Below, in pieces: positions 37,806 to 55,950 of a stretch of 64,000 nucleotides of DNA. The notes beneath the pieces were generated by a model that searched no databases, was not told the origin of the DNA, and saw only the letters and a list, made by a program, of their open reading frames with translations. Numbering within the stretch: position 1 is the first letter of the stretch; every line of letters begins with the position of its first letter. A program made the position numbers and the translations under genes. The stretch is from assembly GCA_964016885.1 (NCBI GenBank), contig OZ024741.1:181598001-181662000 (forward strand), read 5' to 3'. This stretch comes from Eledone cirrhosa. Its lineage: Eukaryota.

Positions 37806-38220
37806 TATTGTTATGCTTTGGGAGGGTCATGTTGCCAATAAGAAACACACCCACCAGTTGCTTTCACTTCAATTTATTATAAATTAAATTTATAAATTTA
37901 GGAATTTATAAATTTCCGGTTGGTTGATTGTTTCCACAACCAGACGATTGTTCATATATTGTCAAAGTTCTTTCGTCACACATTCTGTGACCTCTTCAGT
38001 GACTGGGGATTCTTTTCTTTGTTTTTGTGCCTCTCCTTTGTTCTGTCCTACGCCATCTTGTTTTTGTGTGTGTTGTGTGCTTAGTTTGCGCATGTGTTAC
38101 ATCCGGGTGTCTGCGTGTGTTTCTTATTGGCAACATGACCATCCCAAAGCATAACAATATCGGTTTCAACACACGTTTTCAGATAAAGAATCTTGATAAA
38201 AAAATGCAGAAACGAAATAT
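37806..38220 (-). mobile_element. PLE-derived HHR-bearing unit with 45-bp inverted ends (family D)
   Basis: TATTGTTATGCTTTGGGAGGGTCATGTTGCCAATAAGAAACACAC and its reverse complement at ~38115-38159. Homologous to the PLE 3' end at 54490-54910. Confidence 0.8.
37961..38003 (-). ncRNA. Hammerhead ribozyme (family D)
   Basis: GTCA-CTGAAGA-G-GTCACA gaatg TGTGAC-GAAA-GAAC-TT-TGAC, with stem I GTCA/TGAC. Confidence 0.8.
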
Positions 38221-38577
38221 ATATATATATATATATATATATATATATATATATATATATATATATATATATATATATATATATATATATATATATATAT
38301 ATATATAAATATATATATATATATGTAGAGGTTATATTTTAATTTGTTGAGATACAACACGCTAAAATATTTTTACAACTGATATAAAGCACTCAACAAG
38401 TTATTGGAGTAAATATACAATATATTAACAAATGGAAACTATATTTATAAAACCATATTTATTATATACATATATATATATGTATGTATGTATGTATGTA
38501 TGTATATATATATATATTTATGTATGTATATATATATATATATATATATATATATATATATATATATATATATATAT

Positions 38578-38990
38578 ATTGTTATGCTTTGGGAGGGTCA
38601 TGTTGCCAATAAGAAACACACCCACCAGTTGCTTTCACTTCAATTTATTATAAATTAAATTTATAAATTTAGGAATTTTTAAATTTCTGGTTGGTTGATT
38701 GGTTCCACAACCAGACGATTGTTCATATATTGTCAAAGTTCTTTCGTCACACATTCTGTGACCTCTTCAGTGACTGGGATTCTTTTCTTAGTTTTTGTGC
38801 CTTTCCTTTGTTCTATCCTACGCCATATTGTTTTTGTGTGTGTTGTGTGCTTAGTTTGCGCATGTGTTACATCCGGGTGTCTGCGTGTGTTTCTTATAGG
38901 CAACATGACCCTCCTAAAGCATAACACTATCGGTTTCAACACACGTTTTCAGATAAAGAATCTTGATAAAAAAATGCAGAAACGAAATAT
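38578..38990 (-). mobile_element. Tandem second copy of the family-D unit (HHR at 38732-38774)
   Basis: Near-identical to 37806-38220. Confidence 0.85.
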
Positions 38991-39491
38991 ATATATATAT
39001 ATATATATATACATATATATATATAATATATATATATATATATATATATATATATATATATATATATATATATATATATATATATATATATATATATATA
39101 TATATATATATATATATATATATATATGTATGTATATATATATGTAAATATATGTATGTATATATATATATATATATATATATATATATATATATATATA
39201 TATGTGTGTGTGTGTGTGTGTGTGTGTGTGTGTGTGTGAGAGAGTATATGTATCTTCGACGTGGAAACTAGAAAAATATATTTTTACTGGTTTCGACGTC
39301 GACGATAGCTGCGGAAGCGAAGAGAGTGTTGTTGGCGAAAATGATGTTGATGGTTGTAGTGTTTATTCTGTAGTGGTTGCCATGGGGATCATGATGATAA
39401 TAGTCATGGTAGTGCTGGTCTTAGTAGTGGTAACAATGATAATGATGGTAATAGTTGTGTTGTTGGTGGTGGTGGTTTCTGTTGTGGTGAC

Positions 39492-40007
39492 AATATGAGT
39501 GGTAATATGAGTGGTAATATGAGTGGTAATGATAATTCATGAGGTCAATATGAGTGGTAATATGAGTGGTAACGATAATTCATGAGGTCAATATGAGTGG
39601 TAATATGAGTGGTAATGATAATTAATAAGGTCAATATGAGTGGTAATATGAGTGGTAATGATAATTCATGAGGTCAATATGAGTGGTAATATGAGTGGTA
39701 ATGATAATTCATGGGGTCAATATGAGTGGTAATATGAGTGGTAATGATAATTCCTGAGGTCAATATGAGTGGTAATATGAGTGGTAATGATAATTCCTGA
39801 GGTCAATATGAGTGGTAATGATAATTCATGAGGTCAATATGAGTGGTAATATGAGTGGTAATGATAATTCCTGAGGTCAATATGAGTGGTAATATGAGTG
39901 GTAATGATAATTCATGAGGTCAATATGAGTGGTAATATGAGTGGTAATGATAATTCATGAGGTCAATATGAGTGGTAATATGAGTGATAATGATAATTCA
40001 TGAGGTC
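39492..40007. repeat. Minisatellite with 43-bp higher-order unit (12+12+19)
   Basis: (AATATGAGTGGT)2-AATGATAATTCATGAGGTC repeated about 12 times. Confidence 0.95.
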
Positions 40008-40087
40008 GTAGTAATAGTGTTGGTCTGTACTGGTAACCAGTAGGAATATAATGATAATAGTTGCGGTGATTACCGAGTGGTGATATA

Positions 40088-52498: not shown

Positions 52499-52511
52499 AT
52501 ATATGAATGTA

Positions 52512-53090
52512 TGTTATTCTGGTTTTATAATTTTATAATTGTTTACTAATAGAGAGAGTTGGTTTCTAACAGAGATACAAGACACTCTCATTGGAATTTA
52601 CCCATCAACTAAGTAGATATGGCTGTATTTCTGCATGCATACATGTGTGTGCAGGTATGGATGTTATTGTATGTATGTGTATGTTTTGAGTTATATGTGC
52701 GCATGTGCAATATGCTTTGTATATGTACATGTGTACATGCAGTTATTAGATGCAGAAAGTTTGGAATGTTTTACATATTTTTATTTTTCCAATAATGGAT
52801 TGCACTTGTAATTTCCTAACTAGTCGTGTTCCTACTGTTTCTGTGAAGCCCAGCTTCTCAAGATTTGTATTGAGGCAGTTACTAACATATCCCAGTGCCT
52901 AAAACAAACACAGGTATAGTCAGGGTGGAGTATCTGCAGATTTCTCAGTATTTCTGCATAGATATTCTCCTTTTCGCTAATCTTTGATATTATATTGGCA
53001 TAAACTGAGCAGCTAACACACCACTGTGCATGCCTTCTTTTCCCTGTCCCATATCATTATATCTGGTTTCTTATGTTTGCATTTTATTAT
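52512..53090 (-). mobile_element. R4/Dong-like LINE 3' fragment (left arm of an inverted duplication)
   Basis: KPDIMIWDREKKACTVV..; homologous to 62811-63308. Confidence 0.8.
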
Positions 53091-53844
53091 GTATGTGTGT
53101 CTTCTACATTGTGGTAGCTTTTAATGTGTTTATTGTATCTTTTTATCTCTCAGTCTATCTATTTACTCACACACACACATATATATAAATATTATCAGAG
53201 AGAGAGAGATACAGGGAGAGAGAGAGAGAGAGGGAGAGAGAGAGAGAGAGAGAGAGAGAGAGAGAGAGGGAGAGAGTTGCTGCAGATTTTATATACCCGG
53301 GAACGATATTTTATCGACCCATTAGTGATATGTATAAGATGTTCTCTCTATATATAAACACATGCATATATATATATATATATATATACTCCAGTTCTAC
53401 CAGCTGGATATATGCATAGTTTTATTGTTCTACAATATTACTCACCTCCTACATATATATATATATATTGATGCCACACGTTCTCTCTCTCTCTCTCTCT
53501 CTCTCTCTCTCTCTCTCTCTCTCTCTCTCTAGTGTGCTACCCTTTCTACATATTGTATATATATATATATATATATATATATATATATATATATATAGTA
53601 TATGCATATATTTATATCTATAGAGAGAGAACAGCTAATACATATCACTAATGGGTCGATAAAATATCGTTCCCCGGGTATATAAAATCTGAAGCAACCC
53701 CCCCCCCCCTCTCTCTGATTATATTTATATATATGTGTATGTGTATGTGTATGTGAGTAGATAGATACACAGAGAGATAAATAGATACAATAAACACATC
53801 AAAAGTTACAGCAATGTGGAAGACACACATACATAATATGAAAG

Positions 53845-54325
53845 AGTACTGGTGGAATGTTCCTGTCTAAGCTCCAATAAAATGCAAGCGTAACAGACCA
53901 GATATAATGATATGGGACAGGAAAAAGAAGCCATGCACAGTAGTGGACGTTAGCTGCCCAGCAGATGTAAATATAATACTAAAAATCAGCAAAAAGGAGA
54001 ATATCTATGCAGAACTAAGAACTCTGCAGATACTCCGCCTCGACTATACCTTTAGATTTATACCTGTGATTGTTTTAGGCACTGGGATATGTTAGTAACT
54101 GCCTCAATACAAATCTTGAGAGGCTGGGCTTCACAGAAACAGAAAGAACACGACTAGTTTGGAACAGTAAAAGTTCCAAATATTCTGCATCTAATAACTG
54201 CATGTACACAAGTACAGATACAAAACATATCCATATGTACACATATAACTCAAAAACATCCACATACATTACATATCTACCTAAACGGACTCTCTCTCTC
54301 TCTATTGGTAAACATTTACAATATA
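53845..54325 (+). mobile_element. R4/Dong-like LINE 3' fragment (right arm)
   Basis: EYWWNVP..NRPDIMIWDRKKKPCTVVDVSCPADVNI..K..KENIYAEL, a PD-(D/E)xK-type endonuclease. Confidence 0.8.
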
Positions 54326-54489
54326 TATATATATAGGTAAACATTTACAATATATATATATATATATATATATATATATATATATATATATATATATATA
54401 TATATATATATATATATATATATATATATATATATATATATATATAATATATATATATATATATATGTATATATATATATATATTATAT

Positions 54490-55950
54490 AGTTTTGCGAG
54501 GTTTTTTATATGAAATCGTGTGTCGAAACAAATATTGTTATACTTGGGGAGGGTCATATTTGTGTAATATTGCCAGAATTAATAACAGAACACACTCACT
54601 GTTTGGTTGGTTTTCGCTTTTCGCTTCTGTGTCTTTTATATCGGTAATCTAATTTATTCGGTCCTCAATGTTGCCATTGACTGACCAACGGTCAAAAATA
54701 ATACAGATACAATATAGACACAAACACATATATATAGTTTATCAAAGTTCTTTCGTTGCACATCTGCAACATCGTCAGTGGTGCTATTGTTTCCTCCCGT
54801 TACATTGTATGTCTACGCCATCTTTGTTTAGTCTGTTTATATATTTATTTATTTATTTGTTTGTTTGTTTATTTTATTTTGTCTTCTTTGCGCATGCGTT
54901 TGCGTGTGTGTATAGTGTTTTGTTTGATGTGTGTTCGTGATTGGGTTACTGTGTATTGGTTAATGTATTCTATCTTTACTAGTGTGTGTTTATATGTGTT
55001 TGTTGTTATTGTGCTTGTGTATGTATTTATTTATTTATTTATCTATTTATTTATTTATTTATACTTCTCTTAGGTCAGTGTTGTTTGTTTGGGTGTTGTT
55101 GTTATTCCATTCATTCTTTCTGTTTAGTCTTGGCCTTCTAAGTTCTATTTCACTGGCCTCTCTGATTTGCCTATCTGCTGGGTCATTTCTATGTTTAGAT
55201 ATTATTCTAATTTCTATGTTGTCTATGTTACCGTCGTATTGTTGTCTGGCATGTTCGTATAGTACTGACCCGTTTTTTCGCCCTTTTAGTTCCCCCCAGT
55301 ATTGGTCTATCCTTTCACCTATGCTACGAGCTGTCTCGCCTATGTATGTTGTTGTCATGTTTCTGCAAGTACCCTCTGTACATCTTATGCTATAGACTAC
55401 GTTTCTAGTTTTACAGTTTATCCGGGGGTTTACCTTACATATGATACATTTCCTATTAGTACAGTGGGTTTTCTTAAAAGGGTAGGTTTTGCTGATCAGG
55501 GATTTTATGGTGGTTCCTGGCTTTTCCTACCACCTTAATCTTTAAGTGGGTCTTTCTCAGGGCCTTTCTACACTGGTTAGCTAATTTCCCTCCAGGGGTA
55601 GCGTCCACAAAAATGACACTCTGGTATCTCTGGTTGTCGTACCATGATGTGGCTTTCCCTATCTTATGCCTATCCCTATCTAAGCTATTCCATGATTTGC
55701 TCCTGTATAATGGGCAAGTTCCTTTCATGTCCAGTTCTATGAGGGTCTTATACTTCTCCATGGCTCTTTCGTATACTCTGACTCTGTCTCTTTGGTTGTA
55801 ACCAGAGAACTGCATGCGGTTGATGAAGTGTTGGATGTGTCTTTCCATTTCTGTTGGGTCGCATAACCGAAGGAAATGTTGGAAATCCTAATAAAATATC
55901 CAATGTGCATGAAAACATCTTGTACCATGCTTTCGTTAAAGGTTTTAGGT
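54490..55950 (-). mobile_element. 5'-truncated Penelope-like element (RT C-terminus, GIY-YIG, 3' pLTR with family-D HHR at 54741-54782)
   Basis: RMQFSGY..PLYRSKSW..IFVDATPGG (55474-55848); YIGETARSIGER..H..RQIREA..LN (55059-55358); CTGACGA-T-GTTGCA gatg TGCAAC-GAAA-GAAC-TT. Confidence 0.85.

What the first reader, a model, noticed from the sequence alone, without database searches (positions are those of the whole stretch)
37806..54910. MITE-looking units are ribozyme-bearing Penelope termini, with covariation and a captured ORF start
Seen: four HHR copies (37961, 38732, 41979, 54741). Stem II GTCACA/TGTGAC versus GTTGCA/TGCAAC shows two compensatory pairs while CUGANGA and GAAA-GAAC-UU are kept. 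The 54.7-kb copy lies downstream of a GIY-YIG ORF. The 45-bp inverted ends of the ~410-bp units contain an ATG opening a conserved peptide ([20 protein letters not shown] versus MTLPKYNNICFDTRFHIKNL), probably the PLE ORF start. All units lie in (TA)n. Inference: a family of small fold-back, self-cleaving retroelements mobilised by a PLE that annotation pipelines would mislabel as DNA MITEs.
Basis: partly seen in the sequence, partly recalled or inferred. Interest (0 to 1): 0.75.

Follow-up and report, generated by a model that had tools for sequence, protein, structure and literature searches.

The report
Back-to-back stubs of a Penelope retrotransposon
The 410-base hairpin-shaped repeats are two truncated ends of a very abundant Penelope-type jumping gene joined back to back, carrying its predicted self-cutting RNA motif and the start of its protein gene; this layout is already known, and the units are likely dead one-off insertion products rather than a separate mobile family.

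Summary
Observation largely confirmed; the headline inference is not supported. All four hammerhead motifs are present and match the published minimal hammerhead of Penelope-like elements (PLEs). The peptide is the true ORF start: a full-length copy elsewhere encodes 1227 aa (RT plus GIY-YIG) beginning [20 protein letters not shown]. The 410-bp unit is not a dispersed family. Its junction occurs 6 times in 3 Gb, against 14,854 exact family-A hammerheads. Copies with this junction do not form one clade (p-AU 9e-9), and a tail variant of the two window units is found exactly only there. Fold-back pairs are a routine product of this PLE: 44 pairs in 34 Mb, 57-5737 bp long. Inverted pLTR, ORF-start tail and (TA)n targeting are described in print. 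Other agents of this scan reported the same on other DNA. What deserves a look: 41 of 44 pairs join one short end (+26 from the ATG) to one long end (+86), both on an AUAU motif. This likely means reverse transcription is primed on both cut strands of a (TA)n target. Cleavage and expression were not tested.

The parts
37808..38217 (.). Unit 1: two 5'-truncated family-A PLE ends joined 5'-to-5', (TA)n on both sides
37805..38122 (-). Unit 1 short-ended arm: pLTR from about -292 (numbering of the unit itself) to +26 relative to the ATG at 37830
38112..38220 (+). Unit 1 long-ended arm: -23 to +86 relative to the ATG at 38135 ([28 protein letters not shown]); its last 60 nt are the one-sided tail
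38112..38122 (.). 11-nt overlap (microhomology) at the arm junction of unit 1
37961..38003 (-). Minimal type I hammerhead, family A; predicted cleavage after CUU at 37965, about 134 nt upstream of the ATG
38579..38987 (.). Unit 2: 97% identical local duplicate of unit 1 (same junction, same private tail variant)
38732..38774 (-). Minimal hammerhead in unit 2
41637..42179 (+). Unit 3 (540 bp): ~19-nt inverted piece of the long end, then a sense arm from the last ~38 codons of the GIY-YIG domain through the pLTR to the short end (ATG at 42154)
41979..42021 (+). Minimal hammerhead in unit 3
42229..42355 (-). More diverged (about 84%) short-ended stub of the same kind, tail-to-tail with unit 3 across (TA)n; no hammerhead
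54489..55869 (-). 5'-truncated copy of sister family B: end of RT-linker-EN ORF, 3' UTR/pLTR, hammerhead, ORF start, ending at +69 into (TA)n
55062..55526 (-). GIY-YIG endonuclease ORF remnant of family B with upstream Cx4CxxC linker; out of frame with the upstream piece 55477-55869
54741..54782 (-). Minimal hammerhead, family B (stem II GUUGCA/UGCAAC; C-A mismatch in stem I)
54489..54557 (-). ORF start of family B (MTLPKYNNICFDTRFHIKNLAKL), continuous with the full ORF in L159 and L160

Best explanation
Each unit is two 5'-truncated 3' ends of an autonomous, endonuclease-bearing Penelope-like retrotransposon joined back to back inside a (TA)n tract, likely made in one insertion event in which the element's enzyme cuts both strands and starts reverse transcription twice, once at +26 and once at +86 inside its own ORF start. 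SHOWN: the autonomous element (pLTR with hammerhead, ATG, 1227-aa RT plus GIY-YIG ORF, pLTR); two discrete 3' ends 60 nt apart, both on AATAT in the ORF; (TA)n after most ends; one short plus one long end per fold-back pair; continuous unit sizes and scattered junctions; local duplication of units 1 and 2. INFERRED: a Cys-linker GIY-YIG domain targets (TA)n; the two nicked 3' ends, which end in ..ATAT, pair with AUAU at the two start sites; a protein dimer (predicted for the anole PLE) copies one or two RNAs from the same source; both cDNAs stop early and are joined at 0-14 nt of microhomology or at a hairpin. The hammerhead rides along because it lies 135-190 nt upstream of the ATG. It likely works, if at all, in the tandem precursor RNA of full-length copies, as a dimer or with protein help.
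For: Full-length ORFs start with the peptide in both families. Exact counts in the genome: 16,102 short ends and 13,036 long ends followed by TATATA, 483 read-throughs, 14,854 hammerheads, 0 for each reversed control. In loci not chosen by end patterns, 68 of 75 3' ends fall at the two sites (4 elsewhere, 3 read through), and 57 of the 68 run into TA-rich sequence. Contigs of public runs show loose ends at +26 and +86 followed by (TA)n, also in a run labelled as another organism (X5), so the ends are no assembly artefact. On C1:0-34 Mb, 44 outward pairs: 41 short+long, 3 long+long, 0 short+short, p 6e-10 against independent pairing, sizes 57-5737 bp. In 11 of 21 position-sampled short+long units (9 after two doubtful cases) the short-ended arm reaches more than 20 nt further upstream than the long-ended arm, so neither arm can be a copy of the other. 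The two arms of a unit are closer to each other than the median of other units in 15 of 15, and closest in 8 of 15. Junction-bearing copies: 5 changes on a 95-row tree, one clade rejected. In print: inverted pLTR, one-sided tail and ORF start inside the pLTR (PMC3846280; PMC8557442); two internal RT start sites give the tail (PMC11167929).
Against: 8 of 21 position-sampled units have near-symmetric junctions (within 20 nt), several at palindromes of the 5' UTR, which fits a snap-back route for part of them. Four junction copies of the same polarity and subfamily (both window units, L031, L036) are not rejected as one clade (p-AU 0.084), although four of the five markers checked in L031 and L036 also occur in ordinary copies L021 and L025, and the fifth in L028 and L043. 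The tree's bootstrap had not settled. In the anole PLE, RT starts at a site not homologous to the cut DNA, unlike the ATAT pairing proposed here; an apparent ATAT overlap could also arise if ends are simply absorbed into (TA)n. No empty target site was found among the 45 units whose flanks were long enough to compare, so whether (TA)n pre-exists or is added is open. Arm similarity could also come from gene conversion or shared age. Only exact-match ends were counted.
Confidence: 0.8

Rival explanations
1. One reading: the 410-bp unit is a non-autonomous, self-cleaving fold-back retroelement family that the PLE mobilises in trans.
For: Five of 40 scored places cover the whole unit. The same junction recurs at 4 dispersed places plus one near-match. 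Four same-polarity copies are not rejected as a clade. The whole unit folds as a strong hairpin, z -9.8. Non-autonomous PLE derivatives exist (PMC8557442; bioRxiv 2026.07.22.740005).
Against: 6 junction matches against about 29,000 exact ends. All seven junction copies are rejected as one clade, span two subfamilies, and include swapped arms and ORF read-through. The junction is an 11-nt microhomology that can recur. The window pair's tail variant is private. Each unit has one hammerhead, so it cannot release a monomer; 8 of 31 units under 700 bp have none. None of 101 truncated arms starts within -17 to +3 of the cleavage site.
Confidence: 0.07
2. The inverted structure forms by self-priming: one cDNA (or an antisense template, as proposed in PMC3846280) folds back and copies itself, so only one RT start is needed.
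For: 8 of 21 sampled units have near-symmetric junctions, some at 18-34-nt palindromic overlaps. Arms of one unit are often nearest neighbours. It explains one long plus one short end if the copy is resolved 60 nt early. Proposed in print.
Against: It requires the long-ended arm to reach at least as far upstream as the short-ended arm. Units 1 and 2 (short arm about -292, long arm -23) and 9 to 11 of 21 sampled units show the opposite.
Confidence: 0.1
3. The pairs are independent single-ended insertions that pile up in the same (TA)n hot spot.
For: Family A and B ends do accumulate in the same microsatellites, and tail-to-tail neighbours occur (6; window 42179/42229).
Against: The arms are joined directly, without (TA)n between them, with 0-14 nt overlaps in most simple units. 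Pairing is 41 of 44 short+long. Arms of a unit share subfamily and private variants.
Confidence: 0.02
4. DNA-transposon MITE.
For: Short, AT-flanked, with 46-bp inverted ends.
Against: Every part of unit 1 maps to the PLE's pLTR and ORF start; the repeat is not terminal on the right; sizes and junctions vary continuously.
Confidence: 0.01

Closest known systems
Inverted-pLTR insertions of EN+ Penelope-like elements (Adineta vaga Pen2a, PMC3846280; general scheme in PMC8557442 Fig. 2)
   Same: 5'-truncated copy plus adjacent inverted copy; pLTR includes the first codons of the ORF; tail at one end only; microhomology or palindrome at the inversion junction; Asn-rich inserts in the ORF (44% N over aa 251-320 of the L058 protein).
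   Different: Tail is 60 nt (published 30-40 nt). Both arms are often so short that no coding body remains. A target duplication cannot be read inside (TA)n. The short+long rule is counted here (41 of 44).
Neptune / Nematis clades of C-terminal EN+ PLEs (PMC8557442)
   Same: [quoted passage not shown]
   Different: DKS in place of the DKG motif. ORF of 1227 aa with an Asn/Thr-rich insert. Clade not fixed: no reference sequences were in a tree.
Minimal hammerheads of metazoan PLEs (PMC4209133)
   Same: Short helix I (4-5 bp), long helix II (6 bp), one extra nucleotide between A9 and G10.1, G10.1-C11.1 pair, vestigial helix III, mostly single copies, pairs on opposite strands 100-700 bp apart.
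   Different: Loop 3 GAAC is not palindromic (GGAC in part of one subfamily); triplets CUU and CUA; family B helix I has a C-A mismatch.
Poseidon of Anolis carolinensis, PAc (PMC11167929)
   Same: RT starts inside the ORF 5' region at two sites whose spacing gives the tail; AT-rich target; both strands cut and extended; dimer predicted; hammerhead not needed for insertion in vitro.
   Different: PAc starts in an AC-rich stem-loop not homologous to the target, 111-118 nt into the ORF. Here both sites lie on AUAU, which could pair with a (TA)n primer; the hammerhead ends about 134-145 nt upstream of the ATG; no stable stem-loop was predicted over +1 to +100 (z 0.37).
Non-LTR retrozymes (PMC7229834; bioRxiv 10.64898/2026.07.22.740005)
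   Same: Short non-coding repeats with a type I hammerhead, linked to PLE pLTRs.
   Different: Retrozymes are head-to-tail tandem monomers with canonical hammerheads that give circular RNAs. These units are head-to-head, vary in size, carry 0-2 minimal motifs and are not bounded by cleavage sites.

Membership tests
EN+ Penelope-like element | Single ORF with RT and C-terminal GIY-YIG endonuclease | tested here: met
   1227-aa ORF in L058; RT motifs MDVVSLYPSI, GAAIG, YVDD; RVT_1 in 4 of 28 aligned members and GIY-YIG at 23.0 bits, cut-off 22.6; top fold match I-TevI, E 2e-3. The whole protein gave no RT or GIY-YIG Pfam hit.
EN+ Penelope-like element | Partial tandem forming pLTRs that include the ORF start | tested here: met
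   L058, L060 (family A) and L159, L160 (family B): hammerhead-ATG-ORF-hammerhead-ATG-end.
EN+ Penelope-like element | 5' truncation, adjacent inverted copy, one-sided tail | tested here: met
EN+ Penelope-like element | CCHH motif with two Cys between GIY and YIG | tested here: met
   VVYSIRCTEGQC...YIGET...EHW...QHAK in the L058 protein; the first His is Tyr in the window's B remnant.
Neptune or Nematis clade | CX2-5CxxC linker upstream of the endonuclease | tested here: met
   CIDKKCITC at aa 1101; C78, C83, C86 invariant in alignment A1.
Neptune or Nematis clade | RT phylogeny with named references | not tested
   No named clade references came from any call; homologues are unnamed or 'hypothetical'. 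The motif is DKS, not DKG.
PLE minimal hammerhead | CUGANGA and GAAA core, NUH triplet, extra nucleotide after A9, G10.1-C11.1, helices I and II | tested here: met
   features from PMC4209133.
PLE minimal hammerhead | Palindromic 15.2-16.2 / loop 3 for a dimer helix III | tested here: inconclusive
   G-C closure is kept, but loop AA gives two A-A mismatches in a dimer (+1.4 kcal/mol); the GGAC variant gives -1.7.
PLE minimal hammerhead | Self-cleavage as monomer, dimer or with protein | not testable with these tools
   No assay possible; no pile-up of 5' ends at the cleavage site among 101 arms.
Non-autonomous derivative family | Many dispersed copies with identical junction and shared descent | tested here: not met
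   6 junction matches; one clade rejected for 7 copies; not rejected for a subset of 4; private variant local.
Non-LTR retrozyme | Head-to-tail tandem monomers, each with a type I hammerhead | tested here: not met
   Arms are head-to-head; units 1 and 2 are 770 bp apart across (TA)n and a piece of another repeat.
MITE | Terminal inverted repeats at both ends, uniform size, DNA-transposon origin | tested here: not met
   About 60 nt extend beyond the right repeat; sizes 57-5737 bp; sequence is PLE-derived.

The most novel reading that the evidence does not exclude
This family records the PLE insertion mechanism thousands of times: an asymmetric protein dimer cuts both strands of (TA)n and primes reverse transcription by 3-5-nt pairing of the target's ..ATAT ends with two AUAU sites 60 nt apart in its own ORF start, always using one of each. 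The one-sided tail and the inverted pLTR would then be two sides of one two-primer reaction, and the conserved N-terminal peptide would be constrained as the RNA landing site.
Probability: 0.45. Interest if true: 0.55.

Novelty: new member of a known kind. Interest (0 to 1): 0.27.

Why it matters
As a claimed new class of ribozyme retroelement it does not hold. Its value is as material for an open question stated in print: how PLEs form inverted and tailed insertions and why they favour microsatellites (PMC8557442). The family has about 29,000 exactly matching ends, at least one uninterrupted ORF, two sharply defined start sites and a counted short+long rule, so the two-primer model can be tested by census and in vitro. 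It also adds about 15,000 hammerhead motifs and many MITE-looking hairpins to one animal genome, which matters for repeat annotation and ribozyme surveys.

Tried and rejected
Rfam: no hammerhead family among the 150 listed of 169 rows. Pfam on 7 window ORF pieces and on the whole 1227-aa protein: no RT or GIY-YIG hit; PDB sequence search: one low-complexity match only. An apparent shared 5' boundary at position 29 of unit 3 was only unit 3's own truncation point; other copies run on into the ORF. Search for a third hammerhead family with a different stem II: 5 hits, which by eye are decayed A or B motifs, so covariation rests on one contrast. One search used a mis-registered structure string and was discarded (corrected). 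Empty-site search from flanks: none found. 5' truncation at the predicted cleavage site: none within -17 to +3 among 101 arms; two at +4 in one locus beside a microsatellite. Sequencing runs: no RNA holder listed; contigs cannot show cleavage, circles or expression. No stable RNA structure predicted over the ORF start of either family (z 0.37 and -0.37). Earlier findings by sequence: nothing. Literature searches listed no paper on this octopus family or on a counted short+long rule; one search gave one review that I did not open. Supplements were not read; files S1 and S2 of PMC8557442, or Repbase/Dfam, may hold a related cephalopod family. Rejected: MITE, retrozyme, independent pile-up, and pure snap-back for units 1 and 2.

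
Full report
SETTING. The window is G000:C2:181598001-181662000 of a 3.0-Gb genome. The best named relative of the element's protein is a hypothetical protein of Octopus vulgaris at 70% identity, so the host is likely an octopus.

OBSERVATION. Three read GUCA-CUGAAGA-(G/U)-GUCACA..UGUGAC-GAAA-GAAC-UU-UGAC (family A). The 54.7-kb one reads ACCA-CUGACGA-U-GUUGCA..UGCAAC-GAAA-GAAC-UU-UGAU (family B). On a 7-row alignment there are two compensatory pairs in stem II, one in stem I and one C-A mismatch in B. 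All come from the single A-versus-B contrast; a pattern search for a third family gave 5 hits that look like decayed A or B. Folding z-scores are weak, and the B motif misfolds as a monomer. The architecture is the published minimal hammerhead of metazoan PLEs: short helix I, long helix II, an extra base after A9, vestigial helix III, low activity even as a dimer (PMC4209133, parts 1-2 of 4 read). Only the first two copies are 410-bp units with 46-bp inverted ends. The third is a 540-bp unit without a terminal repeat, and the fourth is a 1.4-kb truncated family-B copy with (TA)n only at its 3' end.

THE PARENT ELEMENT. Copies found with the unit continue upstream into an RT plus GIY-YIG ORF. 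A search with 187 aa of it gave 16,468 first-look candidates, 150 scored. I fetched 12 places with long open frames. L058 holds hammerhead, ATG, an uninterrupted 1227-aa ORF starting [31 protein letters not shown], a second hammerhead and ATG, and an inverted truncated copy upstream. Family B has the same layout, with frameshifts, in L159 and L160, starts MTLPKYNNICFDTRFHIKNLAKLIHRRYG and is 64-69% identical over RT-EN. The C-terminal 204 aa hit Pfam GIY-YIG (E 1e-4); the model (pLDDT 85.7) best matches I-TevI and UvrC GIY-YIG domains, with no match at E 0.001 or better. A Cx4CxxC linker and the CCHH residues are present, which points to the Neptune or Nematis type (PMC8557442, passages). The clade was not fixed.

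TWO 3' ENDS. Exact patterns give 16,102 ends at +26 and 13,036 at +86, each followed by TATATA, 483 read-throughs past +86, and 14,854 family-A hammerheads; reversed controls give 0. In loci L001-L030 and L037-L068, not chosen by end patterns, 68 of 75 ends fall at these two sites and 57 of the 68 run into TA-rich sequence (the query itself ends near the short site). In the ORF both sites read AATAT-CG. Family B ends at +26, +69 and about +84, at CAATAT, CTA and TTAT. Contigs of public runs show loose ends at +26 and +86 with (TA)n behind; X5 (another organism label) lists both, X6 only +26, and X1 and X4 share a study that may be the genome's source. This is the known PLE tail: the stretch between two internal RT start sites (PMC11167929, parts 1-2 of 4 read), and the pLTR that includes the first codons (PMC3846280, passages).

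FOLD-BACK PAIRS ARE ROUTINE. I used the listed matches on C1 up to 34.0 Mb: 84 of the 100 listed long ends and all 100 short ends. Of 44 neighbouring outward pairs within 6 kb (88 of the 184 ends), 41 are short+long, 3 long+long and 0 short+short (p 6e-10), 57 to 5737 bp long. A relaxed scan of loci L069-L128 gave 21 short+long and 1 short+short. Junctions scatter, mostly with 0-14 nt of overlap, and with 18-34 nt at palindromes near -57 to -83. Of 31 units under 700 bp, 8 carry no hammerhead, 16 one and 7 two (this set includes loci chosen for likeness to unit 1).

IS THE 410-BP UNIT A FAMILY? Five of 40 scored places cover the whole unit, two of them here. The junction 26-mer occurs 6 times. 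On a tree of 95 pLTR arms the 7 junction-bearing arms need 5 changes (at least 3 forced by well-supported branches; bootstrap not settled), and one clade is rejected, p-AU 9e-9. L032 has the arms swapped and L035 reads on into the ORF. Against my reading, four same-polarity copies are not rejected as a clade (p-AU 0.084), but the markers of L031 and L036 also occur in ordinary copies. The tail variant of units 1 and 2 matches exactly only at these two places, with one further place at one mismatch. So the pair is a local duplicate, and the recurrence elsewhere is best read as a microhomology hot spot.

MECHANISM. In units 1 and 2 the short-ended arm holds about -292 to -23, which the other arm lacks, and the long-ended arm holds +27 to +86, which the first lacks. 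Neither can be copied from the other, so two starts on RNA are needed. The same holds for 11 of 21 sampled units (9 without L079 and L080, where the mapping is doubtful); 2 have the long arm further and 8 are near-symmetric. Arms of one unit are closer than the median of others in 15 of 15 and closest in 8 of 15. The likely course: the endonuclease cuts both strands of (TA)n; each 3' end primes at one AUAU site; both cDNAs stop early and are joined. Cutting and extension of both strands and a predicted dimer are published for the anole PLE. The AUAU pairing is my inference and differs from that element. Snap-back (PMC3846280) may explain the symmetric units. No arm among 101 begins at the predicted cleavage site, so the ribozyme does not set unit boundaries; in the anole PLE it was also not needed for insertion in vitro.

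COMPARISON AND NOVELTY. Inverted pLTRs, one-sided tails and (TA)n bias are described and appear in a curation guide (PMC8969392, passages). Retrozymes are tandem and circular (PMC7229834, passages; bioRxiv 2026.07.22.740005, part 1 of 5) and do not fit. A repeat annotation of O. vulgaris lists 31 recently active Penelope-like families and 65 MITE families (PMC13282606, passages); whether such stubs are among the MITEs was not tested. Searches listed no paper on this family or on a counted short+long rule; supplements were not read. After I had formed this reading, the scan's notes showed 8 listed of 9 findings with the same conclusion on other DNA of this and other genomes; they are unchecked and are not support.

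VERDICT. Real sequence features, known architecture, new abundant member of a known kind. Interest 0.27. The counted short+long rule with AUAU at both start sites is the part worth following.

Noticed in passing
L058, L070, L072, L078 and other copies of the A2 subfamily: Subfamily A2 changes the cleavage triplet CUU to CUA and extends stem I to 5 bp; part of it also changes loop 3 GAAC to GGAC, which improves a dimer helix III from +1.4 to -1.7 kcal/mol. This may be selection on the dimeric ribozyme.
   Followed up: partly
window 15401-15428 (-): A second, unrelated minimal hammerhead (CUGAUGA-A-GGAC..GUCC-GAAA-CG-UU) in another repeat; the adjoining sequence has copies in L086, L094, L096, L112. 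Likely another PLE family's pLTR.
   Followed up: partly
window 10827-13109 (+), 44188-44562 (-): Broken ORFs of what looks like a different PLE-type family (LKDHK..NF, YIGATST..WYNH motifs). No Pfam RT or GIY-YIG hit on the pieces tested.
   Followed up: no
window 14536-14914: 181-bp near-perfect inverted repeat with a 17-nt spacer. The 140-bp spacer between units 1 and 2 (38321-38470) is 83% like 14452-14588, so another repeat sits in the same (TA)n tract.
   Followed up: partly
L005, L022, L056, L060: Family-B ends are repeatedly found in the same loci as family-A ends, in L022 directly across the (TA)n that follows an A end: earlier insertions may make targets for later ones.
   Followed up: partly
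L071, L086, L106, L108: 200-250-bp near-perfect palindromic units with junctions at 5' UTR hairpins (-57 to -83) and no hammerhead; these look more like MITEs than the finding's units.
   Followed up: partly
G000:C1:132947045-132947572: Twelve matches of the ORF read-through 22-mer at 46-bp spacing: a tandem array made from the element's long-end site.
   Followed up: no
G000:C12:17007999-17467447 (L131-L134, L140-L142, L148): Eight family-B copies with the same flanks, about 60 kb or more apart: a large tandem segmental array.
   Followed up: no
window 39430-40093: 43-bp minisatellite, 14 copies listed.
   Followed up: no
window 19690-21769 (+), 23359-25230 (+), 7247-8958 (-), 27736-28689 (-): Remnants of other mobile elements by eye: two LINE-type RT ORFs on +, one RT remnant on -, and a transposase-like ORF. 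Labels are recalled, not from a family search.
   Followed up: no
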